Positions 12,321 to 30,622 of a stretch of 61,879 nt of DNA are shown here, one piece after another (position 1 is the first letter of the stretch; each line of letters starts with the position of its first letter). The position numbers and the translations under genes are program-made. The stretch is from an uncultured Bifidobacterium sp. (GTDB taxonomy: Bacteria; Planctomycetota; Phycisphaerae; Phycisphaerales; SM1A02). The stretch covers positions 1-61,879 of the forward strand of contig CAZKHO010000001.1 in assembly GCA_964552505.1 (NCBI GenBank), written 5' to 3'. The notes under the pieces are model-generated. The model did not search any database and was not told the DNA's origin. It worked only from the letters and a program-made list of their open reading frames with translations.

Positions 12321-13166
12321 ATGTCAACTATGATGCTGGCCATGCCGGGAACCGAAATCGAACGCTGGTGTGAAGCTGCGCGTGCTCGCTGGCCCCAGTT
12401 GACATGGCCGATCGAGCGGTTCGCGGCGTACGTCGGCCGGGATCGACCCAGCCACCCTCAGGACCTGTATCTGGCGGGCGCTGCCGCCGAACGACTGCAT
12501 CGGGCATGGGAGATCGTGCATCTGGAGACGTTCGAGCGGGTGGTCCGGCGCCTCGGCCATTGTCGTTTCGGCGCCGAGTCGGACGGCTTCCGGGCGGAGG
12601 ACCTGTACGGCGAGGTGCTGACCGCCCAGATGGCGGAAGACCCCTCCGCAACACCGCTGCCCGACGGGGTACGGCCCGCGCGCATCCGAAAGTTTCGAGG
12701 CAACAGCAGTCTTTCCACCTACTTCGCCACGTGCGCCACGAACCTGGCGCGGGACCTCATGCGAAGACGTAAGGTCATCGACGTCCGATCGGAAAGTGCC
12801 TGGAAGGAGGGCGATCCGTTCGAGCGTGATGATGGCGGTCGAAGCGCCCCGGCCCCCAGTGGAGAGGAGCAGGACGCGATGTCTCGCGTGCTCGTCCAAG
12901 CTTGGGAGGCGCTGCCGCCGCGACATCGGGCGCTGTTCCGCTTGTGTGCGCTGGGCATGGAGATCGGCCGAGCGGGTCGCGTCTGCGGCCTGACTCCATC
13001 CACCGCGACGCGCACGCGACAGGACGCCATCGACCGCATCCTTCTTCACTTGCAGTCGGCTGGCGTCGACGCCTCGCAACTCACCCCCGAAATCACCCGA
13101 GTCCTGATTCAAGCCCTGCAGGCCCAGTCCGACGATCCAACTTCCACCCCAGGAGGCCACCGATGA
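12321..13166 (+). CDS. ECF-type sigma-70 family RNA polymerase sigma factor
   Basis: Region 2-like DLYGEVLTAQM...STYFATCATNLARDLMRRR. Region 4-like LPPRHRALFRLCALGMEIGRAGRVCGLTPSTATRTRQDAIDRI. Several alternative ATG starts lie within the first 8 codons. Confidence 0.7.
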   Translation: MSTMMLAMPGTEIERWCEAARARWPQLTWPIERFAAYVGRDRPSHPQDLYLAGAAAERLHRAWEIVHLETFERVVRRLGHCRFGAESDGFRAEDLYGEVLTAQMAEDPSATPLPDGVRPARIRKFRGNSSLSTYFATCATNLARDLMRRRKVIDVRSESAWKEGDPFERDDGGRSAPAPSGEEQDAMSRVLVQAWEALPPRHRALFRLCALGMEIGRAGRVCGLTPSTATRTRQDAIDRILLHLQSAGVDASQLTPEITRVLIQALQAQSDDPTSTPGGHR

Positions 13167-13699
13167 GCCCCGCCCCCCTCGACGTCCGCGCCGTCCAGCG
13201 CACGCTGCAGTCCTCACAGGCTCGCGTGGTCCATCTCGACGAGGAGACCATCGCCACACTGCTCGACCACGGGCTGGCAGGACTGCCGCCCGAAATGCAA
13301 GGCCGGGCGCTGGAAGCGATCGCTTCCAATCCGCAGCTTGCGCAGGTGCTGGCGTCCCTCGATGACCCTGCAAGTGATGCCGCAGACAGCCACAACGCGT
13401 CCATGTGGGAAGCTTTTCGATCCGTGACCGGGATCTGGCGACTGACAAATGCTGCCTGTACGGCCCTTGCGGTGGGCGGGTCGTGGTGGGCCTGGAATGC
13501 CTCGCAGTCCGGGCGGCCGCAGCCCGCCCTGCTGGACGGCTCCAGTCCCTCCCTGCCGGATGCGGCGCCTGGCCTCAATGGCCTGGCCTTGGCCCTGCTG
13601 GTGCTGACGTGGCTGCTGGTGGGCGTCACCTTTGTTCCGGCGTTCATCACGCCGCTCCGCGACCGCCACTCCATGCACCGCGGCCACGTGGGCGAGTGA
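13163..13699 (+). CDS. Putative anti-sigma factor (single-pass/two-TM membrane protein)
   Basis: ATGA overlap with the sigma gene stop. Cytoplasmic N-terminus followed by TM segments (WRLTNAACTALAVGGSWWAW and LALALLVLTWLLVGVTFVPAFI). The call rests on position and architecture only. Confidence 0.5.
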   Translation: MSPAPLDVRAVQRTLQSSQARVVHLDEETIATLLDHGLAGLPPEMQGRALEAIASNPQLAQVLASLDDPASDAADSHNASMWEAFRSVTGIWRLTNAACTALAVGGSWWAWNASQSGRPQPALLDGSSPSLPDAAPGLNGLALALLVLTWLLVGVTFVPAFITPLRDRHSMHRGHVGE

Positions 13700-14715
13700 C
13701 GCGCGTGCGGCAGTTGGTCGTGGCGCTGCTGCTGTGCGGAACGCTGGGTGCGTGGGCACCCGGTGGCGATGTGCCGTCCGTGCGGCTGATGCCCGACAAG
13801 CGTCCGCTCCAGCTGCTCCAGCTGGATCCGCAGAGCGTCGAGAACGCGGCCGCCGTGCTGACACGCCTGCACCAGCGCTACAACGCGCCCACCGTGATGG
13901 TGCGCCCCGAGCGTCCCAAGTGGCCCGACGAGGCCGAAGTGGCTCGGATGCTGGTGGCGGAGCTGCGCCAGTACGGATTCGAGGCGATGGCGGAGGCATC
14001 GGCCATGGATCAGGCGCGCCAAGCCGCGGACGAGGCCAGGAAGGCGCAGGTGCCCGATGATGCAGCCAAGGCAGCCCTGAACCTCCGGCCGGACTTCGAG
14101 ATCACGGTCCACTCGGAGCAGTCCGTGAGCCAGCAGCAGATCTACGCCAACAAGGAAGAGATCGTCCGAAAGAGCCTGCGCTGCAGCATCCAGTGGCGCG
14201 GCCGCGAGCTGAAACCCTGCGAGCGAAGTCTTGAGAGCCGCAGGCTGATGCTCAACGACGCCGACCGGAGCCCGGACCAGGGCTTCGCACCTCTGGCGAG
14301 CGAGATCGGCCCGGAGGTGGCGGCCGCCCTCGCCTTGGAGTGGATCCGCGCGGACGCACCCACGCAGCCACGGCTCGTCGAGGTTCGCGGAGGCCTGCCA
14401 TCGGATCAGGTGAAGCTGATGGGCGGCAAGGTCATCACGGACAGTCCCGGCGTGTCCACCACCATCCTGCTCGATGGCGAATTGCCGGCGTCGCTTCGAG
14501 CGGAGGGCCCGCCGCTGCTGGAACGCCCCGGCTACGTGCTGATCGGCCGAAGCGCCGGTTCCGGGTGGCTCCCGGTGGCCGCGCCGGTCGCCGCGCTGGT
14601 CATTGCGGCGATCTGCCTGCCCTGGATCCTGTTCACCGCCATCAAGAGGGCCAGGTCCCGGGGGCATCGGTTCGAGTCATCCTCTCCGCCGCGGCCACCA
14701 GCAGGATCTCGTTGA
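13696..14715 (+). CDS. Exported protein with a C-terminal TM anchor, third gene of the ECF module
   Basis: GTG start overlapping the previous stop (GTGA). Signal/lipobox-like VVALLLCGTLG. C-terminal TM PVAAPVAALVIAAICLPWILFTAI followed by KRARSRG. Confidence 0.5.
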   Translation: MTRVRQLVVALLLCGTLGAWAPGGDVPSVRLMPDKRPLQLLQLDPQSVENAAAVLTRLHQRYNAPTVMVRPERPKWPDEAEVARMLVAELRQYGFEAMAEASAMDQARQAADEARKAQVPDDAAKAALNLRPDFEITVHSEQSVSQQQIYANKEEIVRKSLRCSIQWRGRELKPCERSLESRRLMLNDADRSPDQGFAPLASEIGPEVAAALALEWIRADAPTQPRLVEVRGGLPSDQVKLMGGKVITDSPGVSTTILLDGELPASLRAEGPPLLERPGYVLIGRSAGSGWLPVAAPVAALVIAAICLPWILFTAIKRARSRGHRFESSSPPRPPAGSR

Positions 14716-14736: not shown

Positions 14737-15375
14737 TTACGGCCCTTCGGCAACTCCCCACACCCGTCCGATCTCCTCTCCGCCCGGCCAGGCCAACCCC
14801 AGCCTGGACCGCTGCATCGCCGCTTCGATCACCTGGTCGCTCACCACCGACCGCGGCAAAGGCAGCCATGCCGGATCAGGCCGGGAGCCCACCCTCGAGA
14901 GGTCCAGTCGATCCGCCACAAAGCAGGTGGCCACCGATGCGTCGCCGTGGTGCCGAGTGCCGGTGTGCAGCCGACACGCTTCGTGAAGGCTTTCGAACTC
15001 CCGCTCCGACAGGCCACAGATGACGGCACGGGTGGCCGCGCACGCGTCCTCCACCGTCGGATCGCCCTTGCGCACCTGCGCAAGCCAGGCGGCCGCGCGA
15101 GGACCGTGCTCTGGATCGTGGCCGTCATCCTGACGGTGCGCGTCATGGAAGATGGCGAACAGGCGGGTCACCCGCATGCTGGCGCCCATGGCCGGAGCCA
15201 GCAACTGGGCGTTGTGTCGCACCCGCCACCAATGCGACAGGCCGTGAAGGCCTGACGCTGACATTCCGTGGCGCTTGAGGCAGGCTCGGGCCGCCACCAC
15301 CAGTGCGGTTTCGGGAAGTTGATCCTGATTCTCCAGCATCTGCGCCGCCTCAGCTCCCCGTCCTTGGCCAGCCAC
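14737..15375 (-). CDS. HD-domain (metal-dependent phosphohydrolase superfamily) protein
   Basis: H...HD...D pattern: LHGLSHWWRV, LFAIFHDAHRQDDGHDPEHG. Lies 12 nt downstream of the PD-(D/E)xK gene on the same strand. An alternative start is at 15339. Confidence 0.6.
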   Translation of the reverse strand: MAGQGRGAEAAQMLENQDQLPETALVVAARACLKRHGMSASGLHGLSHWWRVRHNAQLLAPAMGASMRVTRLFAIFHDAHRQDDGHDPEHGPRAAAWLAQVRKGDPTVEDACAATRAVICGLSEREFESLHEACRLHTGTRHHGDASVATCFVADRLDLSRVGSRPDPAWLPLPRSVVSDQVIEAAMQRSRLGLAWPGGEEIGRVWGVAEGP

Positions 15376-15387
15376 GAAGGGGCGATC

Positions 15388-15906
15388 TCAACCCACCACC
15401 TCCGCCGCCCGCTTCAGCGCCTCCCCGCCCGCCGCGCGGTCTCTGGCACCAGTCCACGAAGCCCCCGCCGCCACCACCACCTGCGAAAGCCGCGCGGCCA
15501 GCACGGGCCCCAGCACCGCATCCGTGGGCGTCTCCGCCGGCATGTCCCGCCGGAACGCAAGGCGCGGCGGCGGCTGCACCGGCATGTCGATCACCCACAG
15601 CAGCCACGGCTTCACGTCCGTTCGCAGCCCCACCAGCTTGAAGAGCGGGTACTGGTCGCGGACCTGCCGATAGTTGCCCTGCAGATCCACCGTGCCGTCC
15701 GAAGAGGTCTTCACCTCGAAACCGGTGCCGGTGGCGATGATGTCGGGCTGTCCCGCGCCTCGGTTGATGTAGCAGCCGCGGTACGGGTCCATGGTGCCCA
15801 GAGCCGTGGCCACGGCATCCTGGAACCAGCTGCCGAAGACCTGCGCCTGATGGCGGCGAAGCAGTTCCTCAAGCAGGACCACGGCGGCGTTGGAGAGCTT
15901 GAACAT
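15388..15906 (-). CDS. PD-(D/E)xK restriction-endonuclease-fold protein
   Basis: The motif GAGQPDIIATGTGFEVKTS fits PD...ExK. Lies 18 nt downstream of the ATPase gene. Confidence 0.6.
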   Translation of the reverse strand: MFKLSNAAVVLLEELLRRHQAQVFGSWFQDAVATALGTMDPYRGCYINRGAGQPDIIATGTGFEVKTSSDGTVDLQGNYRQVRDQYPLFKLVGLRTDVKPWLLWVIDMPVQPPPRLAFRRDMPAETPTDAVLGPVLAARLSQVVVAAGASWTGARDRAAGGEALKRAAEVVG

Positions 15907-15924
15907 GGGTTGCCCTGGTGTTGA

Positions 15925-17955
15925 TCAGAAGGTGCGGACCACCGGCACACAGTCGCGCCCTGGCTGCAGCGGCGGCAGCTCCACGTGCTTGACGGCGCGG
16001 CCCGCGCGGCCGGCGGCGGTGATGAGCTGCGCGGCGAACTCGCGATCGAAGGTGGCCACGATGATCTGGCTGGAGACCTGGTCCTTGCGCAGCCCCCCCA
16101 GATACTCGGCCACCTGCGAGCGACTCGCCTCGTCGAGGCCGTTCGTGGGCTCGTCGAAGACGATCCATCCGGGCTTGTGTTCCGGCGTGCCGGCCACCTT
16201 GCCCACCACCGCCATGGCGGCCGCGATGTTCACCAGCACGCGCTGCCCCTCCGAGAGGCTCTTGCCACGATCCTGACCCTGCACCTCCACCGCGTGGCCG
16301 CAAAACTTCAGGCCTTGCAGGGACGGATGGAGCGAATGCAGCCGTTCAACCAGCGTCTGGAATCGACCCTGCACGCCGGCGTCCTGCACCACCGTGCCGG
16401 AGGCCGACCCGGCCTGCGCCTGCCGCTCCTGCACCATCTGGGCAAGCACCCGCAGCCAGCGTTCCCGCTGCTCGGAACGGCGCCGGTCCGCGTCCACCTG
16501 ATCCAGACTGGCTTCCCAAGCGACGCGATCCAGCGCACCAGCCGCGGCCAGCGCCGCGCCCAGCGACTGCAGACGGCGGAAGTCCTCCTGCGCCTCGCCC
16601 AGTCCGTCGTTGAGTCGGCGTGCTTCGGACTCCAGGTCCTGCCCGGCCTTCGCGGCATCCGCGGCCAGCTGACGCGCGGCGTCCAGCGCCGCCGACCCGG
16701 GGGTGGTGGCCCATTCGCGGGTCCAGCGATCGCATCCCTCCCGCAGATGATCCGCCGCCTGCCGCACGGATTCCGCGCTGTCCGAGCTCGGATGCAACGA
16801 CGGCACCACCTTGGCCAGCGCCACGCGGACGGCCTCGTGCTCACGCCGCGCCGACTCCGAGGCCGCCTGCAGTTCGCGGGCCAGCGAATCCAGCTCGTCA
16901 CACGCGGCATCCGCCGCGTCGCGCTGCGCCATCCACTGCTTCGCCTGCGCGTCCTCGGTGCGCGCCACCTGGTCGGCCAGCGACTGCGCGAGCGCCGCGT
17001 GGTTGATCGGGCCGCCGCACACAGGACACTCGGGCGCGGGGGTCCCGGACGCCACCTGCTGCACCAGGTACCTGTGCGCGTCGGTGCGCGTGGTCTGCAG
17101 AAGGTTCAGGGCTGCAAGCAGCTGTCGACACCTGGAGGAGGCATCGCGCAGCTGCTTCACCGCGGCCGCGGCCGCGTCCGAGGCGGCCACCTGCGGGCCA
17201 GCGGCGGTGACGCCGGGCATCCGCCAGACCCGCTCGAGCGCCGCCCGGAGCTTGGCGTCCAATCCCGCTGCGCGCCACGCCGCGCTGACGGCCGCCGACG
17301 AAGGCACGGGCAGCCCAGCCAGTGCCGTCAGGTGCGGCCGAAGCGTCTCCAGACCAGCCAGTGTCCGGGATTCCGGCTGAAGCGAGAGCTCCGCCTGCCG
17401 ACGCGCACCCGCGTCCCCATCCAGGTCGGGCCGGTTCCAGACAAGACCCTTCCTGGACGCCAGCGCACGCCCCAAGCGGTCGTACTCGCCTGCGGTGCGC
17501 GGCCGATCGCCGCAGCGACGGTCCGCCTCCAGGAAGTCCTGCCGAAGCTGCCCCAGCCCGGCCGGCTCCGCGGGCCCCTGGCCGTTGCCGCCACGCTCCA
17601 GCTGACGGGCCAGCTGCTCCAGCAGTTGCGCTTCCTCGGAAGGCCGCGTGGCGTTGGCCGCCATGGCCAGGGCCTGGCTCAGGTCGCGGAACTCCTTGAG
17701 CAGCTCGATGGAGGTGATGAACGCCACGGTCTGCCGCACGCCGCGCGTGCTGAACTCCTGCGCGGCGCCCGTGTCCTGGTCGATGCATCGAACCTGCGCG
17801 TCCGCCTTCGTCTCCTGGAGAGGCTTCAGCAGCGTGGACTTGCCGGCACCATTGGGACCCGAGACCACGATCAGGTCGAAGCGGGAGAGATCCTCCACCG
17901 CGACCGCTCCCAGCGGACCACGCGCGTGCTGGATGGCCTCAACGCGCAGGGCCAT
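15925..17955 (-). CDS. Rad50/SbcC-like ABC ATPase with a coiled-coil insert and a central CxxC zinc hook
   Basis: Walker A SGPNGAGKST. Signature LSEGQRV. Walker B WIVFDEPTNGLD. Long Ala/Arg/Gln/Leu-rich helical insert. ECPVCGGPI sits at the midpoint (about nt 17008-17031), resembling the Rad50 hook CPVCG. Confidence 0.85.
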   Translation of the reverse strand: MALRVEAIQHARGPLGAVAVEDLSRFDLIVVSGPNGAGKSTLLKPLQETKADAQVRCIDQDTGAAQEFSTRGVRQTVAFITSIELLKEFRDLSQALAMAANATRPSEEAQLLEQLARQLERGGNGQGPAEPAGLGQLRQDFLEADRRCGDRPRTAGEYDRLGRALASRKGLVWNRPDLDGDAGARRQAELSLQPESRTLAGLETLRPHLTALAGLPVPSSAAVSAAWRAAGLDAKLRAALERVWRMPGVTAAGPQVAASDAAAAAVKQLRDASSRCRQLLAALNLLQTTRTDAHRYLVQQVASGTPAPECPVCGGPINHAALAQSLADQVARTEDAQAKQWMAQRDAADAACDELDSLARELQAASESARREHEAVRVALAKVVPSLHPSSDSAESVRQAADHLREGCDRWTREWATTPGSAALDAARQLAADAAKAGQDLESEARRLNDGLGEAQEDFRRLQSLGAALAAAGALDRVAWEASLDQVDADRRRSEQRERWLRVLAQMVQERQAQAGSASGTVVQDAGVQGRFQTLVERLHSLHPSLQGLKFCGHAVEVQGQDRGKSLSEGQRVLVNIAAAMAVVGKVAGTPEHKPGWIVFDEPTNGLDEASRSQVAEYLGGLRKDQVSSQIIVATFDREFAAQLITAAGRAGRAVKHVELPPLQPGRDCVPVVRTF

Positions 17956-18133
17956 GGCCGGAGCCCTCCGTGTGCGACGCGGCGTCCAGATCCTGCTCGG
18001 CCAGTCTGGCCAGCTCGTTGAAGGCGTCGTTGCCGTTGGCGTTGCGAGCCACCTTGGCCGACGCGCCGTACAGCGTGCCGGGACATGCGGCCAGCGCGCG
18101 CTCCACGGCTTCCCGGATCTGCGATTCGTTCAT
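17939..18133 (-). CDS. Small (64 aa) helical protein, first gene of the ATPase operon
   Basis: Overlaps the ATPase start by 17 nt. Plausible composition (MNESQIREAVERALAACPGTLYG...). No recognisable family. Confidence 0.45.
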   Translation of the reverse strand: MNESQIREAVERALAACPGTLYGASAKVARNANGNDAFNELARLAEQDLDAASHTEGSGHGPAR

Positions 18134-18951: not shown

Positions 18952-19434
18952 ATGCATCCGCTGCTCACCTTCCTGATTGGACTGGCGCTGGGCCTGGTGG
19001 CGCTGGCCATCGCCATGCTTCGCGCGCGGCTGCGGCACCAGCGCGAACTGGCCGCGGCCCGCCAGGACAGCGTCCGCCGCAGCCGCAGCACCCTGGGCGG
19101 CAAGATGGCCGAGCAGTTTGCGCCCATGCTGCCGGGCTTCGACGACGAGCCGGGCGACTGCAAGTTCCTGGGCGACCCGATCGACTACGTGGTGTTCCGC
19201 GGCCTCACGGAGGCGCGACATGGCGACGGTGCGCTGGACAATCTGGAGGTGGTGCTGCTGGACGTGAAGTCCGGCGCCAGCCAGATGAGCAAGTGGCAGC
19301 GCGCCATCGCGCAGGCCGTGCATGCCGGGCGGGTACGCTTCGAGGTGATCCGCGTGGACGAGCGCGGGACCTTGGTGCGCAAGCCGTACACCCCTCGCGG
19401 CGGCGACGCGCCCCCGACAGGAGACCGAGCATGA
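18952..19434 (+). CDS. TM-anchored Holliday-junction-resolvase-like endonuclease (COG4741-type)
   Basis: N-terminal TM LLTFLIGLALGLVALAIAML. Then KFLGDPIDYVVFRG...VVLLDVKSGASQMSKWQRAIAQAVHAGRVRFEVIRV, matching the Hjc-like PF10107/COG4741 pattern as remembered. Confidence 0.6.
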   Translation: MHPLLTFLIGLALGLVALAIAMLRARLRHQRELAAARQDSVRRSRSTLGGKMAEQFAPMLPGFDDEPGDCKFLGDPIDYVVFRGLTEARHGDGALDNLEVVLLDVKSGASQMSKWQRAIAQAVHAGRVRFEVIRVDERGTLVRKPYTPRGGDAPPTGDRA

Positions 19435-21180: not shown

Positions 21181-21190
21181 AGTATAGATG
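21181..21190 (-). promoter_or_regulatory. AT-rich 10-mer CATCTATACT (read on the minus strand), a candidate -10 region
   Basis: The identical 10-mer occurs on the plus strand at 54014-54023 upstream of the second STAND gene. It contains TATACT. It lies in the 63-bp divergent intergenic region. Confidence 0.3.
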
Positions 21191-21937
21191 GATGCGCGCA
21201 CGCGCCGGGATACACTGCGGATCGTGTCGGCAGCCCAGACCACGTCCGGTGCTTCCAAGCCCTCCGCGCAGGGCTTCGCGTTCCTTCGAAACCTTGGATG
21301 GCTGGCCATCTGCGACGGCCCGCTGCGGCGCGCCGAAGCTGCGGCCCTGGCGCGGATCGCGGAAGCCAGCGAAGGTCTGCGTGGCTGCCTGGCGCCCACG
21401 CTGGCGCTGCTGGAGGAGATGGACTACGCCACCGTGGCCGACGCCTGCCGAGGCGTGGGCGAGCTGGCCTTCAACGATCGCCGGCGCCTGCTCCGATGCG
21501 CGGTGCAGGTGGCCCTGGCGGACGGTGGCCTCACGGTGGCCGAGGGACATGCGCTCCGCCTGATGGCCGATCTCTGCTGCGGCGGCGTGGGCGGCGAGCA
21601 GGAGCTGGCCAACGCCTATCGCGAGGTGACCAACCGTGCGCTGCCCGCGTTGGCCGACCCTTCGTCGGTGGAGTGGTGGCGCAACCAGGAGCTCACGGGC
21701 AAGGGCGGCGCCGACGACGAGGATCCGCACGCCGCCTCCGCGCGCCGCCGGCTGGAGAACCTGAACCTGCTGGGACTGGAGCCCAATGCCTCGCCGCCGG
21801 AGGTGGAGGCCCGTTTCCGGGATCTGATGAAGATGCTGCATCCGGATCGCTTCCACCACGATCCGCGTCTGGGATCGGTGGCCGCGGCGCTCTTCCAGCG
21901 CATCCAGACGGCACGCCGGGAGCTGATGGAGCCATGA
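21188..21937 (+). CDS. TerB-like domain plus C-terminal J-domain protein (DjlA-like architecture)
   Basis: TerB-like repeats LAICDGPLRRAEAAALARIAEA and ALADGGLTVAEGHALRLMADL. J domain NLLGLEPNASPPEVEARFRDLMKMLHPDRF carries the HPD motif. The start may instead be the GTG at 21224, because TATAGA overlaps the ATG. Confidence 0.75.
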   Translation: MDARTRRDTLRIVSAAQTTSGASKPSAQGFAFLRNLGWLAICDGPLRRAEAAALARIAEASEGLRGCLAPTLALLEEMDYATVADACRGVGELAFNDRRRLLRCAVQVALADGGLTVAEGHALRLMADLCCGGVGGEQELANAYREVTNRALPALADPSSVEWWRNQELTGKGGADDEDPHAASARRRLENLNLLGLEPNASPPEVEARFRDLMKMLHPDRFHHDPRLGSVAAALFQRIQTARRELMEP

Positions 21938-22236: not shown

Positions 22237-24000
22237 ATGACGGGAGGTGGACCACGCCAACGAACGCCATTCGTCGCGTGGAAACGCTCTCTCCGCGACA
22301 TCCTGAAGGATCAGCAGAACTGGAATCTGCATGCGCGAGAGAGGGAGATCCATCAGGTCTCGCAGCGAGCGATTCTTCCGAAGCGCATCAAACGGATGGC
22401 GCTGGACATCATCCTGGGGGTGCCGATCGGCCTGCTCGTCGTTCGCAGGACCGGCTCCGATGCGGCGAACCCGCGCCACCATCTGGTGGACGGACTGCTC
22501 CGATGCCTGCTGCTCCGGCACCTGTTCCAGACGCCTGACGGAGCGCCGGAGCACGCGGAATGGCCGTGCGTGGATCTCCGGAAGCTGTTCGGGAGCGGAC
22601 GCCGCCCACTCGATCGGGGACAGGCTCTTCGTCGCCTTCGCGACGAGGAACGGCTGGGGTCCGCCATCCTTCCAAAGGCTGCGGAACGCCCACGTGTCGG
22701 GCGTCTGGCGCTCTGGCGCCTGATGGGGAGCGAGCCGTCGCCGGAGGATCGTCTCCCGGTGGACCCCGCGCATGCACTCGGCTGGGAACTGCTGCGGGAG
22801 CGCGTTGCCGAATTCCCGGTGTACGTGGCGTGCCTCAACGGAACCCCGAGCCTGGCCGAACGCGACGCACGAGCGGATCGATGCCAGCAGTCACTCAACG
22901 TTCCAAGCCACCGGCGCTCACTGGGCGTGCAACGGAGGGGCTACCGCCTGCTCTGGGATCACTTCGAGGCGTCCCTGACATCCGCTGGCGCGGATCCGCG
23001 TGAAGTGAGCGCGTGGCTGGAAGTCTCGGGGAACAACGCAGAGGCGACGGCCTTTCTGCTCCGGCTGATCGCCGACCGCGCCGCCCCGGATGCCGAACCA
23101 TCGCAGCCGCGCATCATCGCCAAGGGGCTCTCCCCTGAGGACTGCGCAGCACATCTGCCAGCACTGGCTGCGGGCATTCGCGACACGCATGCGTTCTGGC
23201 AACGGCGGTGCCTGACCATCACCAAGCCATACTGGTACCTGGTGTCCGGATTGGCCCATCGCCTGGACGCGTTCAGCGCCTCGGAACTTGAAGGGCCGTT
23301 CACCGCCAGATTCTGGCGGATGCTCATGGCCGACATCCCCCAGGATCCCCGCGTCATCCGCTCGATGCTCGACGGATCGAGGCAATGGCCCGAGCCGCTC
23401 GTCGCCAACCCCCTGTCGTTCGTCCGACGCATGCTTGATTGGGCGCCGGAGCACTCGGAACAATCGCTGCGAGCCCTCCTGGACTTCCTGCTGTCCCCGG
23501 ATTCCGTGGCCGGGGGCACACCGCTCCCGCAGCACGCGCGCCCGGACGGCACGATGCAGCCCGCTCACGCATTCCTGCGCGAGGCGATGCGGAACGGGGA
23601 ATCCTGCGATCTGGACCACATCATTCCCGAGTCCGCCTTGCGGGAGTGCAAGGCCAGATCCGTGGTCCAGTCGCCGCTGAACAAGTGGGCGCTGCCTTCA
23701 GGCATGAACCGAAGCAAGAACGACCGCCCGCTGCCCGATTTCGCGCGCTCCTCCTACCTGACCATGCTTGAGCGCGGCCGCATCGATGACTGCCTGTCAC
23801 AATGGACCAACTCGCACGGATTCCACTGGCTTCCTCTCGAGGAGGGCGCTACGACATCGCAGCTGCAGACGCTTCTGGCGGACCGGAGCGGTTTCTTCTG
23901 GAAGAGGCTGGAGCGCCTGCAACCCAGCGACGCATCCGTGTCTCCCGGCCAGGTCCGCGGACTTCTGCTGGAAGGCCTCCGCGAACGCTGGGGCGGCTAA
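22237..24000 (+). CDS. Large protein with a C-terminal Cas9/McrA-type HNH endonuclease motif
   Basis: CDLDHIIPESALRE...SPLNKWALPSGMNRSKNDRPLP parallels D-x-DHI-x-P-x-S...NK-x-L...NR-x-K-x-D-x-P of Cas9-type HNH domains. The ATG directly follows the previous stop. The N-terminal 450 aa are unassigned. Confidence 0.7.
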   Translation: MTGGGPRQRTPFVAWKRSLRDILKDQQNWNLHAREREIHQVSQRAILPKRIKRMALDIILGVPIGLLVVRRTGSDAANPRHHLVDGLLRCLLLRHLFQTPDGAPEHAEWPCVDLRKLFGSGRRPLDRGQALRRLRDEERLGSAILPKAAERPRVGRLALWRLMGSEPSPEDRLPVDPAHALGWELLRERVAEFPVYVACLNGTPSLAERDARADRCQQSLNVPSHRRSLGVQRRGYRLLWDHFEASLTSAGADPREVSAWLEVSGNNAEATAFLLRLIADRAAPDAEPSQPRIIAKGLSPEDCAAHLPALAAGIRDTHAFWQRRCLTITKPYWYLVSGLAHRLDAFSASELEGPFTARFWRMLMADIPQDPRVIRSMLDGSRQWPEPLVANPLSFVRRMLDWAPEHSEQSLRALLDFLLSPDSVAGGTPLPQHARPDGTMQPAHAFLREAMRNGESCDLDHIIPESALRECKARSVVQSPLNKWALPSGMNRSKNDRPLPDFARSSYLTMLERGRIDDCLSQWTNSHGFHWLPLEEGATTSQLQTLLADRSGFFWKRLERLQPSDASVSPGQVRGLLLEGLRERWGG

Positions 24001-25169
24001 ACCCGCATCGCCGCAAAGCTCTCCCCCCGCCGCCCGATCTCGCGCTGCCGCTCCGCCGCGTCGCTTCCACCCGTGATCAGCCACAGGATGCGGCGCCGGC
24101 AGTCCAGCGTGCGCGCCCCCTGCCCGTCGGTCATGAAGATCACGCCGTCGATGCGCTGCGCACGTTCGTTCACCCACGCGATGGCGGGGTCGAAGTCCGT
24201 GCCACCGCCGCCCGAGGTCTCGGTGGGCGCCTGCCCCCGATAGTTCCAGACGCGCCCCACCTCCTGGTCGCTTTCCACCACGGTGATGGTGGCACCAGCC
24301 CGCCAGATGGCCCGCACCTCGCCGAAGAAGGCGGCCAGCTGCCGCGGCTCGATGGAACCGCTGGTGTCCAGCACCACCGCCAGATGGCTGAGGGGCTGCA
24401 CCCGGATCCCCGGCACCTTGCCGAACCGCTTGGAGGGCCGCTTGAGCGTGGTGCGGATGCGCGTGCGGCGGCTGCCGGTGCCGAACAGTCGGACCATGCG
24501 CCGCCAGTCTCGGGTGCCCGTGCCATGGGCCACGGTCTCCTCCACCACGCGCCGCAGATCGCCGGGGAGCCGGGCCAGCGCCTCGGCACCCGCGGCCTGC
24601 GCCCCCTGACGGACCACCTCGGCCGTCACCGCGGCCGCCGCGACGGGATCTCCCTCCGCCCAGATCTCCGCACCCTGCCCGCGCGTGTCCGATGACTGCT
24701 GCAGGGCCGTGGCCGCCGCGCCCGAGGCCAGACGCGCGTAATACCACTCCATGGTCTGGCCCCACAGGCGGTCGCCGAGTGCCAGCAGGCCAGGCGTGTC
24801 GATGCGGAGGGCGCTCGCAGGCAGCAGTTCCTCCTCCACCAGGCAGTTCACCGCCAGGTCCGCCGCCACGTTCATGCGCTCCGCATGTTCCAGCTGTCTG
24901 GCACGCTGCAGGTGCCCCAGCACCACATGCAGGATCTCGTGCTTGAGCACTCCAACGCGGTGCGCGTCGCTTTCCAGCGTGCGCAGCCAGAACACCGGGT
25001 TCACCAGAAGATGCAGCGCGCCGTTGCGGACGGTGACCGCCGCGGTCTCCACCTCCTCGGTCACCACGCGGATGGCGCAGAGCAGGACGTGCCCGTAGAA
25101 CGGGTTCACCAGCAGCAGCCGACTTGCCGCACGCTCCAGCGACGCCAGCACCGCCTGCCGGTCATGCAT
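23997..25169 (-). CDS. VWA-domain protein with an N-terminal HExxH putative metallopeptidase domain (DUF2201-like)
   Basis: HEILHVVLGH motif. MIDAS VVLDTSGSI. GGGGTDF and FMTDGQG motifs. Overlaps the MoxR gene stop by 8 nt. Confidence 0.8.
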   Translation of the reverse strand: MHDRQAVLASLERAASRLLLVNPFYGHVLLCAIRVVTEEVETAAVTVRNGALHLLVNPVFWLRTLESDAHRVGVLKHEILHVVLGHLQRARQLEHAERMNVAADLAVNCLVEEELLPASALRIDTPGLLALGDRLWGQTMEWYYARLASGAAATALQQSSDTRGQGAEIWAEGDPVAAAAVTAEVVRQGAQAAGAEALARLPGDLRRVVEETVAHGTGTRDWRRMVRLFGTGSRRTRIRTTLKRPSKRFGKVPGIRVQPLSHLAVVLDTSGSIEPRQLAAFFGEVRAIWRAGATITVVESDQEVGRVWNYRGQAPTETSGGGGTDFDPAIAWVNERAQRIDGVIFMTDGQGARTLDCRRRILWLITGGSDAAERQREIGRRGESFAAMRV

Positions 25170-26277
25170 GCCCCAGCCTCATGAGCGGCGCGTGCTCCAG
25201 CAGGAACGCCGTGACCTGCATGGTGGCGGCCTTGCGGAGGAACGCCTGGCGCGCGTCCGCCGGCAGGCGCTCCCACATGAGAAGCTCGATCAGGTTGCGC
25301 CGTTGCCGTTCCCCGACGGTGCCCATCCGGGACAGATGCGCGGCCAGCCGATCCAGCATCATCATCATGCGGTCCACGCGCGGGGCCGCGCCCGGTGGAT
25401 GCACCAGGGCCTCCAGCCGCTGCAGCAGCCGCTCCTCCGCCAGCCTCTCCAGCAGGTCCTCGGCGGACGGGAGCCGGGCCATCCCTCCCTGCACGAAAGC
25501 CAGGAAGCTTCCGGCCGCGGCCGGCTCGATGCACCCTGTGGCGATCATGGCCACCAGATCGTGGTGCGCCGCCAGATCCTCCAAACCACGCAGATGCTCG
25601 AAGAGGTTGGTGAGACTGCGCGGCGTGGTGCGCCCCGTGCCCACCAGCTCCGGATAGGCCAGCACGAACTCGATGCCCCGCGAATCCACCCCCGCCGACG
25701 CCGCCCAGGTGGCCCACGCCTTGGCGTCGAAGGTCATGGTGGCGTGCATCATGCGCGTCAGCAGCGCGTCGTCCATGGGCGTGACGGAGAACTCGCCGCC
25801 GTCGGGATTGGCCGTCAGGAAGATCTGCCAGCGCTCCGGCAGCCCCCAGTTGAACATGCGGCGGTCCTGCAGCAGCTGCATGATGCCGCGCAGGATCCGG
25901 TCGTCGGCGCGGTTCACGTCGTCCAGCAGCAGGATGCCTTCGCCCCCCCGCTGGTGCATCTGCTGCGCCCACTCCGGCATGACGTACATGGTGTAGTCGT
26001 CGGTGGGATCGTCCGGCGTGTTGGGGTCGATGACCTTGGGCATGCCCGTGAGGTCTCCCATCTCCTCGAACTGCGCAGGATTGACCTGCAGGAAGTTCAC
26101 CCGGCGCGCCGCGGCGAAGTCGCGGATGCTCTGAGTCTTGCCGATGCCTGGCAGGCCCCAGACGCAGAGCGGCACGGGCTGCAGGCCGCGGCGCATGCGG
26201 TCCACGTTGGCGTCGTAGACATGCGAGATCAGGCGGTGGTAGCGCTCGCCGGAGACTTCAGGGCCGTGCACGATCAT
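25162..26277 (-). CDS. MoxR-like AAA+ ATPase (AAA_5 type)
   Basis: Walker A VWGLPGIGKTQS. Walker B ILLLDDVNRADD. Sensor-like FLTANP. Confidence 0.85.
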   Translation of the reverse strand: MIVHGPEVSGERYHRLISHVYDANVDRMRRGLQPVPLCVWGLPGIGKTQSIRDFAAARRVNFLQVNPAQFEEMGDLTGMPKVIDPNTPDDPTDDYTMYVMPEWAQQMHQRGGEGILLLDDVNRADDRILRGIMQLLQDRRMFNWGLPERWQIFLTANPDGGEFSVTPMDDALLTRMMHATMTFDAKAWATWAASAGVDSRGIEFVLAYPELVGTGRTTPRSLTNLFEHLRGLEDLAAHHDLVAMIATGCIEPAAAGSFLAFVQGGMARLPSAEDLLERLAEERLLQRLEALVHPPGAAPRVDRMMMMLDRLAAHLSRMGTVGERQRRNLIELLMWERLPADARQAFLRKAATMQVTAFLLEHAPLMRLGHA

Positions 26278-29272: not shown

Positions 29273-30582
29273 GCGTGTTCCTCCTGAACTCGACGGCCAA
29301 GGAGGCCGCCAAGCGCCTGGGCAAGGCTACGGTCCTGCGCGCCCAGCACCACGCGCCCCAGACGCGGCAGCCGCGCCAGCGTGTCCAGGCCTTCATCCAC
29401 ACCCGCACCCGTCAGGCGAATCAGGCGGAGGCGTGCGCATCCGGCCAGCGTGCTCGGCAGCACAAGATGCCTGCATCCCCGCAACGAGAGCGTCTCCAGC
29501 GCACCGCAGCCGCCGATGCCGTGCGGCAGCTGGCGCACGGCCGTCCCGTCCAGCTGCAGCTGCCGCAGCCTGGGCCAGGTCACCGGCCCCGCCGGAAGCT
29601 GCTGCACCCGGGTGCCCGAAAGGTCGAGCGTCTCCAGCGTGACCACGCGCGCCAGCGACTCCGGCAGCTTCCGCAGGGGATTCCCGGCAAGGTCCAGATG
29701 CCGCAGGCGGGCGCAGCGATCGAGCGGCCCCGACAGCTCCTCCACCTGGTTCCAGCCCAGATGCAGCGACTCCAGGTGGCGGATCGCCTCCGCGTGGACC
29801 GTGGCCACGCGCGCACCCGTCAGGCGCAGCACGCGAAGCGCGGCGCGGCCCTCCAGTCCGGCGGGCAGCTCGTCCAGCGGATTGCCGTCCAGATGCAGCG
29901 TGTCCAGCGCCTCCGGAAGCCCCTGCTCCAGCGCAAGGACCTCGATCCGGTTTCGAGAGAGATCCGCGTGGCGAAGGCCGGTGCACTTGCGCAGGCCGAA
30001 GGCGTCCAGGCGAAGGCGGTTGCACGCGGCCCGAAGGGTGACCAGCTGCGGACAGAGCTTTCCCAGGCCGTCCAGATCCGTCAGACGGTTGCGACAGAGG
30101 TTGAGCGCGCGCAGCGAAGCGCCGCAGCCACGCAGGAGCGCCACCGGGAGTTCCAGCAGGCCGTTGCCGGAGAGGTCCAGCGACGCCAGCGCGGGAAGGT
30201 CGTGCGCCAGTTCAACCTTTCGAGAGAGGCTGCAACCCCGCAGAAAGAGCGACTGCAGCGAGGGCGGCAGCGGCAGCGGTCCCCTCCCAAGCGGAAGGCC
30301 CTCCAGCGCCAGCGACTGCAAGGGCAGCTGCGCAAGCCACCCGGGGATCTCCTCCAGACACCCACGCACGCGCAGCGAACGGAGTGCGCCACAGCCCTGA
30401 AGCCACTCCGGAAGATCCGGCCGTTCGCCCAGATCCAGCTCCAGCGACTGGAGCGCATCCGCGCCAGCCGGCGCGGCTCCGGACGCGGCGGCGCCCTGCG
30501 GCAAGGACCACCCATGCCGGACCCCGTCGCCGGGGCGCGCCAAGACCACCATCCAGTCCTGTCCGGAAGGGATGGTGGTCAT
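29269..30582 (-). CDS. Leucine-rich-repeat protein
   Basis: About 14 tandem LRRs, e.g. LRHLDLAGNPLRKLPESLARVVTLETLDLSGTRVQQLP. ATGA overlap with the downstream GYF-LRR gene. Confidence 0.8.
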   Translation of the reverse strand: MTTIPSGQDWMVVLARPGDGVRHGWSLPQGAAASGAAPAGADALQSLELDLGERPDLPEWLQGCGALRSLRVRGCLEEIPGWLAQLPLQSLALEGLPLGRGPLPLPPSLQSLFLRGCSLSRKVELAHDLPALASLDLSGNGLLELPVALLRGCGASLRALNLCRNRLTDLDGLGKLCPQLVTLRAACNRLRLDAFGLRKCTGLRHADLSRNRIEVLALEQGLPEALDTLHLDGNPLDELPAGLEGRAALRVLRLTGARVATVHAEAIRHLESLHLGWNQVEELSGPLDRCARLRHLDLAGNPLRKLPESLARVVTLETLDLSGTRVQQLPAGPVTWPRLRQLQLDGTAVRQLPHGIGGCGALETLSLRGCRHLVLPSTLAGCARLRLIRLTGAGVDEGLDTLARLPRLGRVVLGAQDRSLAQALGGLLGRRVQEEHA

Positions 30583-30622
30583 GGCGCTGCCGGAATCACA
30601 TGGGCATGCGGACCGTGCGCGT

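What the first reader, a model, noticed from the sequence alone, without database searches (positions are those of the whole stretch)
14737..18133. Orphan Rad50/SbcC-like zinc-hook ATPase operon with PD-(D/E)xK and HD partners and no SbcD/Mre11
Seen in sequence: four minus-strand genes with a 17-nt overlap and gaps of 18 and 12 nt. They are a 64-aa helical protein, a 676-aa ABC ATPase, a 172-aa PD-(D/E)xK protein (QPDII...FEVK) and a 212-aa HD protein (H...HD...D). The ATPase has GPNGAGKST, LSEGQ and FDEP motifs and a long coiled-coil insert. The midpoint of that insert carries ECPVCGGPI, essentially the Rad50 hook motif CPVCG. Established knowledge: canonical Rad50/SbcC works with the Mre11/SbcD phosphoesterase. 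Coiled-coil ABC ATPases with nuclease partners also form defence systems, such as Lamassu, the ABC three-component systems and the zinc-hook ATPase RloC. Inference: this four-gene arrangement does not match any named system I know. The HD phosphohydrolase may substitute for Mre11, or it may act on nucleotides or signals.
Basis: partly seen in the sequence, partly recalled or inferred. Interest (0 to 1): 0.75.

Follow-up and report, generated by a model that had tools for sequence, protein, structure and literature searches.

The report
Rare zinc-hook ATPase–nuclease three-gene module
A rare, unnamed three-gene cassette (a 64-aa protein, a Rad50/LmuB-like zinc-hook ATPase and a small Hjc-like nuclease) recurs across four bacterial phyla and most resembles the Lamassu anti-phage system, whereas the neighbouring HD gene is a local addition and not part of it.

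Summary
The four minus-strand ORFs, their spacing and every quoted motif are real. Only three of the genes form a conserved unit. The order p64, then a 676-aa zinc-hook ABC ATPase, then a 172-aa PD-(D/E)xK protein recurs in about 30 loci from Planctomycetota, Verrucomicrobiota, Alpha- and Betaproteobacteria, always in that order and usually with the same 17-nt p64/ATPase overlap. The HD gene is a genuine HD hydrolase, but it is absent from all other loci except one, where a distant homolog lies 3.5 kb away. A 99%-identical copy of the cassette loses synteny exactly at the p172 stop codon.

No SbcD/Mre11 gene accompanies the ATPase in any locus. Pfam, NCBIfam, PHROGs and PADLOC assign no family to p64 or p172. 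The ATPase gets only sub-threshold ABC/SMC hits and partial LmuB hits, and the "mad3" hit comes from a generic profile.

By fold, the ATPase matches Rad50 and Salmonella LmuB about equally, and p172 matches Hjc-type resolvases. The family keeps the Walker B Asp-Glu but has an invariant Phe in place of the H-loop His.

The best reading is a minimal, rearranged Lamassu-like module that senses DNA and controls a nuclease. An SbcCD-like repair role is the main rival. I rate it a new variant of a known kind, of moderate interest.

The parts
17939..18133 (-). p64: a 64-aa, mildly acidic (pI 5.1) small protein and the first gene of the conserved triad. Its stop overlaps the ATPase start by 17 nt, which suggests translational coupling.
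   Evidence: ORF. Homologs (38-50% identity) lie directly upstream of the ATPase in every locus with enough sequence, including second-tier loci L019 and L021. The 17-nt overlap is conserved in about 20 loci. No Pfam, PADLOC, NCBIfam or PHROGs family. No similarity to SbcD.
15925..17955 (-). 676-aa Rad50/LmuB-like coiled-coil ABC ATPase with a zinc hook.
   Evidence: Invariant Walker A, CxVC hook, LSEGQ signature, Walker B FDEP and D-loop. AF2 model has pLDDT 90. Top Foldseek hits are Rad50 7zr1 (3e-9) and LmuB 9hqx/9hqu (3-6e-8). Best PDB sequence hit is Rad50 5da9 (2e-8). The family is isolated: 39 representatives below E 1e-30 out of 1.84 billion.
17833..17859 (-). Walker A / P-loop, GPNGAGKST (residues 33-41).
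17341..17571 (-). Family-specific conserved helical insert near the base of the N-terminal arm (residues 129-205; invariant D145, C148, R153, T154, Y158, G162, W173, R185, E189, P194, R197, G201). It is a candidate docking or DNA-binding surface; that role is inferred.
   Evidence: Invariant columns; short helices H134-148, H155-169, H182-190 in the AF2 model.
17005..17031 (-). Zinc-hook motif ECPVCGGPI (C310 and C313) at the apex of the coiled coil.
   Evidence: C310 and C313 are invariant in 32 sequences. A CPVC or CxxC motif lies at mid-length in all tiers of the family. In the model the loop sits between helices H258-302 and H319-331.
16243..16257 (-). ABC signature motif LSEGQ (residues 567-571).
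16132..16167 (-). Walker B WIVFDEP, with the catalytic Glu602 retained, followed by the D-loop TNGLD.
   Evidence: D601, E602 and P603 are invariant.
16036..16059 (-). Degenerate H-loop VATFDREF: Phe636 occupies the position of the ABC H-loop histidine.
   Evidence: The HMM alignment places the family's 'vatFdreF' against Rad50 'ITHDEEF'. F636 is invariant in 11 sequences and at least 90% conserved in 32.
15388..15906 (-). p172: a small Hjc-like PD-(D/E)xK nuclease (predicted catalytic D30, D55, E64, K66) with a C-terminal two-helix hairpin (residues 132-171). It is the third gene of the triad and the inferred effector.
   Evidence: 59 homologs, none with a name or Pfam domain. Invariant residues. 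AF2 model has pLDDT 90 and pTM 0.90. Top Foldseek hits are Hjc resolvases (1gef, probability 0.97), RecE, EcoRV, SwaI and DpnI, and viral Hjc/RecU-like proteins. It always lies -4 to +27 nt after the ATPase gene. The second-tier partner is homologous (hhalign 99.5%).
14737..15375 (-). HD-superfamily phosphohydrolase of the YedJ/BH2835/YpgQ type. It is adjacent and probably co-transcribed here, but it is a lineage-specific neighbour and not a conserved component of the module.
   Evidence: 79 homologs. Invariant H48, H77-D78, H137 and D155. PDB HD hydrolases 3dto/3djb hit at 2e-4, and Pfam HD is matched by 6 of 25 members. Absent from L003 and about 28 other triad loci. Its homologs lie in unrelated contexts. 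A distant homolog lies 3.5 kb from the triad in L013.

Best explanation
The real unit is a conserved, horizontally spread three-gene operon: p64, a zinc-hook ABC ATPase, and p172.

I propose that the ATPase dimerises in two ways, through its CPVC zinc hook and through ATP-driven head engagement, to form a short Rad50/LmuB-like clamp that recognises DNA ends or unusual DNA structures. The H-loop histidine is replaced by an invariant phenylalanine. ATP turnover is therefore probably slow, and the ATPase would behave more like a switch than a motor.

p64 is made in fixed proportion to the ATPase through the conserved 17-nt overlap. I take it to be a small structural subunit occupying the position that LmuC, or the SbcD C-terminal domain, holds just before the ATPase gene. 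p172 is the effector, an Hjc-like PD-(D/E)xK endonuclease. Its C-terminal helical hairpin would tether it to the ATPase until DNA sensing licenses cleavage.

The most likely biological role is Lamassu-like immunity against phage or plasmid DNA.

Shown here: gene content, order and coupling; the folds; motif conservation; the rare and patchy distribution. Inferred: physical complex formation, the DNA-sensing trigger, regulation of the nuclease, and the defence role. The HD gene is a neighbour specific to this genome.
For: The triad keeps a fixed order in about 30 loci across four phyla. The 17-nt overlap is conserved and the ATPase-p172 gap is always -4 to +27 nt. Divergence of the ATPase and p172 is correlated across loci (r = 0.62). 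The architecture extends to second-tier ATPases (L019, L021) and to an ~820-aa relative (L020).

The ATPase fold matches Rad50 and LmuB, and PADLOC LmuB models hit at 1e-13 and 2e-11. LmuB is about 600-650 aa with a CxxC hook and degenerate catalytic motifs that imply slow hydrolysis. Here a different motif is degenerate, the H-loop His replaced by Phe.

p172 has a PD-(D/E)xK fold with invariant catalytic residues. Lamassu effectors include PD-(D/E)xK/REase domains.

Only 7 of 185,579 species genomes carry the module, and they are phylogenetically scattered. A 99%-identical cassette has a different downstream flank. Some neighbourhoods contain TIR, STAND, trypsin and Phage_AlpA genes, and the window itself carries NACHT-TPR, LRR and MoxR-VWA genes.
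Against: No LmuA or LmuC model hits p172 or p64. The gene order is not LmuA-LmuC-LmuB. p172 lacks the 5-6-helix LmuA C-terminal domain. The Walker B glutamate is retained, as in repair-type Rad50.

PADLOC found no recognised defence system among the tested neighbours, so the defence-island argument is weak. The module is absent from plasmid, phage and viral-contig collections, so a link to mobile elements is not shown. Recurrent neighbours are DNA-processing enzymes (an AddAB-like pair, DUF2779, Endonuc_Holl, RNase_T), which fits a repair role equally well.

Complex formation was not modelled, and no experiment exists.
Confidence: 0.5

Rival explanations
1. The triad is an analog of the SbcCD / Mre11-Rad50 DNA-repair complex. 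In this reading the Mre11-type phosphoesterase has been replaced by a PD-(D/E)xK nuclease. The complex would process hairpins, blocked ends or branched intermediates ahead of resection by a helicase-nuclease.
For: Rad50 is the top match both by fold (7zr1, 3e-9) and by sequence (5da9, 2e-8). The Walker B Asp-Glu and a single hook are retained. p172 most resembles Holliday-junction resolvases. In one lineage the triad is followed, with a 0-3-nt gap, by an AddB-like and AddA-like pair (L006-L009, L037, L038, L040). A fused 2047-aa AddAB-like gene lies near L020. RNase_T follows the L019 triad. An Endonuc_Holl protein neighbours the triad in both the window and L023. From my own knowledge, not tested here: Bacillus subtilis has addBA and sbcDC in one operon.
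Against: The distribution is very sparse and crosses phyla (7 of 185,579 species), and the flank varies at strain level; both are atypical for a core repair function. The H-loop histidine, which is normally required for ABC and Rad50 catalysis, is replaced by an invariant Phe. The AddAB-like pair scores far below the NCBIfam equivalog cutoffs (43 vs 486 bits and 116 vs 861 bits), so it is not the housekeeping AddAB, and it is followed by a TIR-DUF2779 gene. The coiled coil is about 300-400 residues shorter than in SbcC.
Confidence: 0.25
2. This is the first reader's model: a four-gene system in which the HD phosphohydrolase is an integral partner, either standing in for Mre11 or acting on nucleotides or signals.
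For: In the window the HD gene lies on the same strand 12-48 nt after p172, with no terminator-like site between them. A distant HD homolog (29% identity, E 5e-16) lies 3.5 kb from the triad in Limnohabitans locus L013. One member of the HD family is fused to a TIR domain, which hints at a conflict-related role.
Against: HD is absent from about 28 other triad loci. That includes L003, whose cassette is 99% identical and whose synteny ends at the p172 stop. HD homologs in Planctomycetota sit beside unrelated genes with no triad nearby. The L013 copy is on the opposite strand, beyond three intervening genes.
Confidence: 0.07
3. The locus belongs to an already named system, as suggested by the PADLOC hits to MADS (mad3) and by motif similarity to RloC, DndD/Pbe, Septu, PARIS or Wadjet.
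For: PADLOC mad3 hits at E 3.9e-21. Weaker hits go to mad8, AriA, JetC, PbeC, DndD and PtuA.
Against: The mad3 hit is partial (profile positions 162-329 of 374, aligned to the C-terminal head). The MADS HMMs were built from HHpred alignments of PDB hits, so they are generic. MADS needs eight genes including a methyltransferase, a kinase and a specificity subunit, and none is present here. All the other hits cover only the P-loop or have E values of 1e-5 or worse. The ATPase carries no extra nuclease or anticodon-nuclease domain.
Confidence: 0.03

Closest known systems
Short-type Lamassu (LmuA-LmuC-LmuB, also called DdmABC or ABC-3C)
   Same: It is a three-component operon built around a ~600-700-aa Rad50-like ABC ATPase with short, kinked coiled coils and a CxxC zinc hook. 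A small accessory protein is encoded immediately before the ATPase gene. A separate effector can be a PD-(D/E)xK/REase nuclease. The ATPase active site is degenerate, which implies slow hydrolysis. The fold matches Salmonella LmuB at E 3e-8.
   Different: The gene order is accessory, ATPase, effector, and not effector, accessory, ATPase. The effector is only 172 aa, with a two-helix tail in place of the 5-6-helix LmuA C-terminal domain. The accessory protein is only 64 aa. No LmuA or LmuC HMM hits, and LmuB HMMs hit only partially at 42-48 bits. The degeneracy lies in the H-loop (His to Phe), not in Walker B. The family is sharply separated from all others in an exhaustive search.
SbcCD / Mre11-Rad50
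   Same: It has a zinc-hook ABC ATPase paired with a nuclease. Rad50 is the best match both by fold and by sequence. Walker B is intact. A small protein-coding region that precedes the ATPase gene parallels the position of the SbcD C-terminal domain.
   Different: No calcineurin-type phosphoesterase gene occurs in any locus. The ATPase is about 370 residues shorter than E. coli SbcC, and hhalign aligns only the signature-to-Walker B segment. p64 shows no similarity to SbcD. The H-loop histidine is lost.
RloC
   Same: It is a defence-associated ABC ATPase with a coiled-coil insert carrying a CxxC zinc hook (own knowledge; named among LmuB homologs).
   Different: RloC is a single polypeptide with a C-terminal anticodon-nuclease domain. 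Here the ATPase ends at the C-terminal head lobe, and the nuclease is a separate PD-(D/E)xK protein.
Archaeal Hjc / RecU-type Holliday-junction resolvases (closest relatives of p172 only)
   Same: p172 has a minimal PD-(D/E)xK core with the D...D...ExK catalytic signature, and these resolvases are its best structural matches.
   Different: Sequence identity is only 10-16% and the Foldseek E-values are weak (0.01-0.3). p172 has an extra N-terminal helix pair and a C-terminal helical hairpin, and it is always encoded next to the ATPase.

Membership tests
Lamassu (LmuACB / ABC-3C) | Rad50-like coiled-coil ABC ATPase (LmuB) of about 600-650 aa (short type) | tested here: met
   676 aa. AF2 model gives Foldseek E 3e-8 and 6e-8 to Salmonella LmuB 9hqx_B and 9hqu_A.
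Lamassu (LmuACB / ABC-3C) | Recognition by LmuB family HMMs (PADLOC LmuB; Pfam DUF3732, the latter from my own recollection) | tested here: inconclusive
   Best PADLOC LmuB hits are 48 bits (E 1.4e-13, hook region only) and 42 bits (E 1.9e-11, about half the profile). DUF3732 is not among the Pfam hits.
Lamassu (LmuACB / ABC-3C) | Effector LmuA: an N-terminal enzymatic domain plus a dedicated C-terminal domain (a 5-6-helix bundle in the short type) | tested here: not met
   p172 is a PD-(D/E)xK domain with only a two-helix C-terminal hairpin. No PADLOC LmuA model hits it. No LmuA chain appears among the top 50 Foldseek hits.
Lamassu (LmuACB / ABC-3C) | Middle component LmuC, encoded just upstream of LmuB | tested here: inconclusive
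   p64 occupies that position and overlaps the ATPase start. However, it is much smaller than LmuC, hits no LmuC model, and its structure was not modelled.
Lamassu (LmuACB / ABC-3C) | Operon order LmuA-LmuC-LmuB | tested here: not met
   The order is p64, ATPase, p172 in every locus.
Lamassu (LmuACB / ABC-3C) | Divergent Walker B (short type hhhhD[Q/S/T/E]; long type hhhhDD) | tested here: inconclusive
   The motif is WIVFDE, that is hhhhDE. This is allowed within the published short-type pattern but is also the canonical ABC form.
Lamassu (LmuACB / ABC-3C) | Anti-phage or anti-plasmid activity that depends on the ATPase and the effector | not testable with these tools
   This needs plaque or transformation assays.
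SbcCD / Mre11-Rad50 | Zinc-hook (CxxC) coiled-coil ABC ATPase with a Rad50-type head | tested here: met
   C310 and C313 are invariant. Matches to Rad50 7zr1 at E 3e-9 and 5da9 at E 2e-8.
SbcCD / Mre11-Rad50 | Partner Mre11/SbcD calcineurin-like phosphoesterase encoded with, or acting with, the ATPase | tested here: not met
   No such gene appears in any annotated neighbourhood. p64 versus SbcD gives hhalign probability 0.2%.
SbcCD / Mre11-Rad50 | Catalytic H-loop histidine and a long (~900-1300 aa) protein | tested here: not met
   Phe636 occupies the H-loop His position. The protein is 676 aa, against 1048 aa for E. coli SbcC.
MADS | Eight-gene operon that includes an N6-methyltransferase, a kinase and a specificity subunit | tested here: not met
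   Only a partial hit to the generic mad3 profile. The MADS HMMs derive from PDB alignments. No methyltransferase or kinase lies in the locus.
RloC | Single polypeptide: a zinc-hook ABC ATPase fused to a C-terminal anticodon nuclease | tested here: not met
   The ATPase ends with the C-terminal head lobe (strands to residue 675) and has no further domain.
PD-(D/E)xK nuclease superfamily (p172) | Alpha-beta-beta-beta-alpha-beta core carrying conserved D...D...(D/E)xK residues | tested here: met
   D30, P54-D55 and E64-x-K66 are invariant in 33 sequences. Confident model. The top Foldseek hits are all PD-(D/E)xK nucleases.
HD phosphohydrolase superfamily (p212) | H...HD...H...D metal-binding motif within an HD fold | tested here: met
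   H48, H77-D78, H137 and D155 are conserved. The profile hits HD hydrolases 3dto/3djb at 2e-4. Pfam HD is matched by 6 of 25 members.

The most novel reading that the evidence does not exclude
The triad is a distinct, previously undescribed lineage of the Rad50/SbcC radiation, in which the Mre11 phosphoesterase has been replaced by a resolvase-like PD-(D/E)xK nuclease and the ATPase-binding element has become a free-standing 64-aa protein. It would be either an evolutionary intermediate or an independent parallel to the proposed route from SbcCD to Lamassu. Its invariant H-loop His-to-Phe change would make it a one-shot, ATP-gated switch, and in some lineages it would work together with divergent AddAB-like helicase-nucleases.
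Probability: 0.2. Interest if true: 0.7.

Novelty: new variant of a known kind. Interest (0 to 1): 0.5.

Why it matters
Lamassu and SbcCD are current models for how Rad50-type clamps sense DNA ends and control nucleases. This module is about as small as such a system could be: a 64-aa subunit, a 676-aa hook ATPase and a 172-aa nuclease. It has a different gene order, a different way of disabling ATP hydrolysis (H-loop Phe in place of Walker B Gln), and a resolvase-like effector.

If it proves to be a defence system, it widens the known Lamassu-like design space, and it is missed by the PADLOC v2.0.0 (2023) models tested here. If it proves to be a repair factor, it would be a non-orthologous replacement of Mre11/SbcD. 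Either way its small size makes it attractive for structural and biochemical work.

The practical correction for annotation is that the HD gene should not be counted as part of the system.

Tried and rejected
1. MADS membership. The mad3 hit is generic and the other MADS genes are absent.

2. A conserved fourth gene upstream. Several loci have a ~212-223-aa gene just upstream of the triad, but these proteins are unrelated to each other and to the window's HD and M50B-like proteins.

3. HD as a conserved partner. Rejected on synteny.

4. The AddAB-like pair as housekeeping AddAB. It scores far below the NCBIfam equivalog cutoffs.

5. A defence-island call from PADLOC on the neighbours. Only generic domain hits were found.

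6. p172 as a paralog of the neighbouring Endonuc_Holl protein. hhalign probability is 1.5%.

7. p64 as a homolog of the SbcD C-terminus. hhalign probability is 0.2%.

8. Presence on plasmids, phages or viral contigs. None found.

9. Promoter and terminator consensus scans gave nothing, and there are no tRNAs in the window.

11. The ABC ATPase classification paper (Krishnan et al. 2020) could not be retrieved. I therefore could not check whether it lists this clade.

12. The word-indexed homolog search found only 3 ATPase homologs, because common ABC words saturated the candidate list. The exhaustive search and partner-guided locus retrieval recovered the family.

Full report
**Observation.** The four minus-strand ORFs exist exactly as described: 17939-18133 (64 aa), 15925-17955 (676 aa), 15388-15906 (172 aa) and 14737-15375 (212 aa). 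The overlap is 17 nt and the gaps are 18 and 12 nt. Third-position GC of 0.77-0.87 in a ~70% GC window supports coding. All quoted motifs were located at window coordinates. The public annotation of the HD gene uses the ATG at 15339 (200 aa, P0063), which would widen that gap to about 48 nt.

**Family libraries.** Pfam, NCBIfam, PHROGs and PADLOC give no family for p64 or p172. The HD protein gets only a weak HDIG hit. The ATPase gets only sub-threshold ABC_tran, SMC_N and SbcC_Walker_B hits in Pfam. In PADLOC it gets partial hits to "mad3" (3.9e-21, C-terminal head only) and to LmuB (1.4e-13 and 1.9e-11). The MADS profiles were built from HHpred alignments of PDB hits, and MADS itself is an eight-gene methyltransferase-containing operon. 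The mad3 hit is therefore generic, and MADS membership is excluded.

**What is conserved.**
- The word-indexed search found only three ATPase homologs. Their contigs already showed the same layout: a small ORF overlapping the ATPase start, and a ~170-aa ORF after it.
- p172 has 59 homologs, all unnamed and without a Pfam domain.
- Neighbourhoods of p172 homologs, a scan of 185,579 species genomes (7 loci: Verrucomicrobiota ×2, Limnohabitans, Hyphomicrobiaceae, Singulisphaera, Planctomycetota ×2) and a metagenome scan (24 loci) all agree. The ATPase lies directly upstream of p172, and a p64 homolog lies directly upstream of the ATPase, wherever the contig is long enough.
- The 17-nt p64/ATPase overlap is preserved in about 20 loci, although the proteins are only 38-50% identical. 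The ATPase-p172 spacing is always -4 to +27 nt. Divergence of the ATPase and p172 is correlated (r = 0.62).

**The family in an exhaustive search.** A profile search of 1.84 billion representative proteins shows a sharply isolated family. There are 39 representatives below E 1e-30, then a few ~820-aa relatives, then generic ABC proteins at about 1e-7. All tiers carry a CPVC-type hook at mid-length. The second-tier loci L019 and L021, and the ~820-aa relative in L020, have the same layout. The L019 partner protein is homologous to p172 (hhalign 99.5%).

**The HD gene is not part of the unit.**
- L003 carries a cassette 99% identical to the window from 18391 down to 15392. Similarity stops two bases before the p172 stop codon, and different genes follow.
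- No HD homolog occurs in about 28 other triad loci.
- The HD protein is real. It has 79 homologs with invariant H48, H77-D78, H137 and D155, and its profile matches YedJ/BH2835/YpgQ-type HD hydrolases.
- In Planctomycetota its homologs sit beside unrelated genes.
- The only second co-occurrence is a 29%-identical homolog 3.5 kb away on the opposite strand in Limnohabitans locus L013.
- In this window it may well be co-transcribed, since no terminator-like site was found. It is nevertheless a local addition.
- Several loci have ~212-223-aa genes just upstream of the triad, but these are mutually unrelated, so there is no hidden fourth component.

**The ATPase.**
- Walker A, the CxVC hook, the LSEGQ signature, Walker B FDEP and the D-loop are invariant.
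- The AF2 model (pLDDT 90) shows an ABC head split by two multiply kinked helical arms of about 200 residues each. They meet at the hook loop, residues 303-318.
- The Foldseek ranking is Chaetomium Rad50 (3e-9), then Salmonella LmuB (3e-8 and 6e-8), then JetC, archaeal Rad50 and cohesins.
- The best PDB sequence hit is Rad50 5da9 (2e-8). That alignment places the family's invariant Phe636 ("VATFDREF") opposite Rad50's H-loop histidine ("ITHDEEF").
- Against E. coli SbcC, only the signature-to-Walker B segment aligns.
- A family-specific conserved insert (residues 129-205) lies near the base of the N-terminal arm.

**p172.** Residues D30, GAGQPD55, GFE64-V-K66, N78-Y79 and R95-T-D97 are invariant. 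The model is confident (pLDDT 90, pTM 0.90), with an alpha/beta core followed by a C-terminal two-helix hairpin. The best structural matches are archaeal Hjc resolvases, RecE, EcoRV, SwaI and DpnI in the PDB, and Hjc/RecU-like proteins in the viral library. The E-values are weak, but the hits are consistently PD-(D/E)xK nucleases. p172 is unrelated to the neighbouring Pfam Endonuc_Holl protein.

**p64.** It is conserved across both tiers, with a Q-I-R...G-x-L-Y-G...R-x-A-x-G...D-I-x-x-A pattern, and is mildly acidic. It shows no similarity to SbcD.

**Genomic context.**
- There are no matches in plasmid, phage or viral-contig collections and no tRNAs in the window.
- Recurrent but lineage-specific neighbours are mostly DNA-processing enzymes:
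  - an AddB-like and AddA-like pair immediately downstream in one alphaproteobacterial-type lineage, followed by a TIR-DUF2779 gene; this pair is far below the AddAB equivalog cutoffs;
  - a fused 2047-aa AddAB-like gene near L020;
  - DUF2779 proteins in seven loci;
  - RNase_T after the L019 triad;
  - an Endonuc_Holl protein beside the triad in both the window and L023.
- Other neighbours include a STAND-like DUF4062-AAA_16-TPR protein, trypsin-like proteases and Phage_AlpA.
- The window itself carries NACHT-TPR, LRR, ankyrin, MoxR-VWA and TerB-DnaJ genes.
- PADLOC recognised no named system among the tested neighbours.

**Comparison with known systems.** Published work describes LmuB as a Rad50 relative of about 600-650 aa with short coiled coils, often a CxxC hook, and a divergent Walker B that implies slow hydrolysis. 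The small LmuC is encoded just before LmuB, as the SbcD C-terminal domain is before SbcC. LmuA effectors include PD-(D/E)xK/REase domains joined to a dedicated C-terminal domain. Lamassu is proposed to have evolved from SbcCD (bioRxiv 10.1101/2025.03.14.643221; PMC10586767; PMC12663957).

The triad shares these features:
- the ATPase architecture;
- the position of the small protein;
- a separate nuclease effector;
- a degenerate catalytic site.

It differs in these:
- gene order;
- a far smaller effector that lacks the LmuA C-terminal domain;
- a 64-aa accessory protein;
- an H-loop change in place of the Walker B change;
- no LmuA or LmuC HMM hit.

It also fails the SbcCD definition: it has no phosphoesterase partner, a short coiled coil and no H-loop histidine. 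I therefore classify it as a new variant of the Rad50/LmuB-type ATPase-nuclease kind, and not as a member of Lamassu or SbcCD.

**Mechanism.** I commit at about 50% to the following. A hook- and ATP-dimerised clamp senses DNA ends or unusual structures. p64 acts as a stoichiometric structural subunit. p172 is a tethered Hjc-like nuclease that is licensed on sensing, with the role being defence against foreign DNA. The main rival, at about 25%, is an SbcCD-like repair role. That reading is supported by the Rad50-like head, the intact Walker B, the resolvase-like nuclease and the AddAB-like neighbours. It is weakened by the very sparse, cross-phylum distribution, the strain-level variation in the flank and the lost H-loop histidine. 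Folds, motifs and operon conservation are shown here. Complex formation, the trigger and the biological role are inferred.

Noticed in passing
window 18952-19434 (+); L023 6-344 (-): A 160-aa protein with an N-terminal transmembrane helix and a Pfam Endonuc_Holl (PF10107) domain lies divergently upstream of the triad, beyond an M50B-like gene. A 62%-identical homolog lies divergent-adjacent to the triad in the otherwise distant locus L023. It is unrelated to p172 (hhalign probability 1.5%).
   Followed up: partly
L006 8529-14876 (+); also L007-L009, L037, L038, L040: In one lineage the triad is followed, with 0-3-nt gaps, by a PDDEXK_1 protein (1065 aa) and a UvrD-helicase/PDDEXK_1 protein (1048 aa). 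They resemble AddB and AddA but score far below the NCBIfam equivalog cutoffs. A TIR_2-DUF2779 protein of 1260 aa comes next. This may be an extended five- or six-gene system.
   Followed up: partly
L004 14281-16215, L016 10426-12294, L034 7346-9172, L012, L033, L041, L044: Proteins of 600-650 aa containing DUF2779 (PF11074) recur within a few kb downstream of the triad in seven loci from different lineages. They hit no PADLOC or NCBIfam family.
   Followed up: no
L003 4228-6090 (-); L006 1566-3425 (-): An unannotated 620-640-aa protein (47% identical between the two loci; no Pfam, PADLOC or NCBIfam hit) recurs near the triad in two distant lineages. One of them is the 99%-identical relative of the window cassette.
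   Followed up: no
window 23997-26277 (-); L015 10383-12697 (-): A gene pair encoding a MoxR-like AAA_5 ATPase and a DUF2201 VWA/metallopeptidase protein lies about 6-8 kb from the triad in the window. A distantly homologous pair (23-28% identity) lies at a similar distance in the Hyphomicrobiaceae locus L015.
   Followed up: no
window 54049-61245 (+) and 43753-49359 (+): Two giant proteins: a 2398-aa NACHT/NPHP3_N STAND NTPase with extensive TPR repeats, and an 1868-aa TPR protein. They fit the conflict-system style of gene content in this region.
   Followed up: no
window 26294-34180 (-): Consecutive large repeat proteins: LRR proteins of 992 aa and 437 aa, and an ankyrin-repeat protein of 1185 aa. 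These are unusual eukaryote-like repeat proteins sitting next to the MoxR-VWA pair.
   Followed up: no
P0136 (JGI metagenome protein, 271 aa): One member of the HD-protein family has an N-terminal TIR_2 domain (Pfam E 4e-19) fused to the C-terminal part of the HD-family sequence. This hints that the HD family can take part in conflict or signalling systems.
   Followed up: no
L019 3092-3829 (+): A second-tier triad (79 aa, 702-aa ATPase, 184-aa p172 homolog) is followed 15 nt later by an RNase_T/DEDDh exonuclease gene. That gene hits PADLOC PDC-S48 and Cas-associated DEDDh models at about 1e-25.
   Followed up: partly
window 21188-21937 (+): A 249-aa protein combining a TerB domain with a C-terminal DnaJ (J) domain.
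   Followed up: no
window 12321-14715 (+): Immediately beyond the HD gene, on the opposite strand, lie a 281-aa protein with a weak sigma-70 region 2 hit and a 436-aa protein with no family. They may form an ECF-type sigma factor and partner pair.
   Followed up: no
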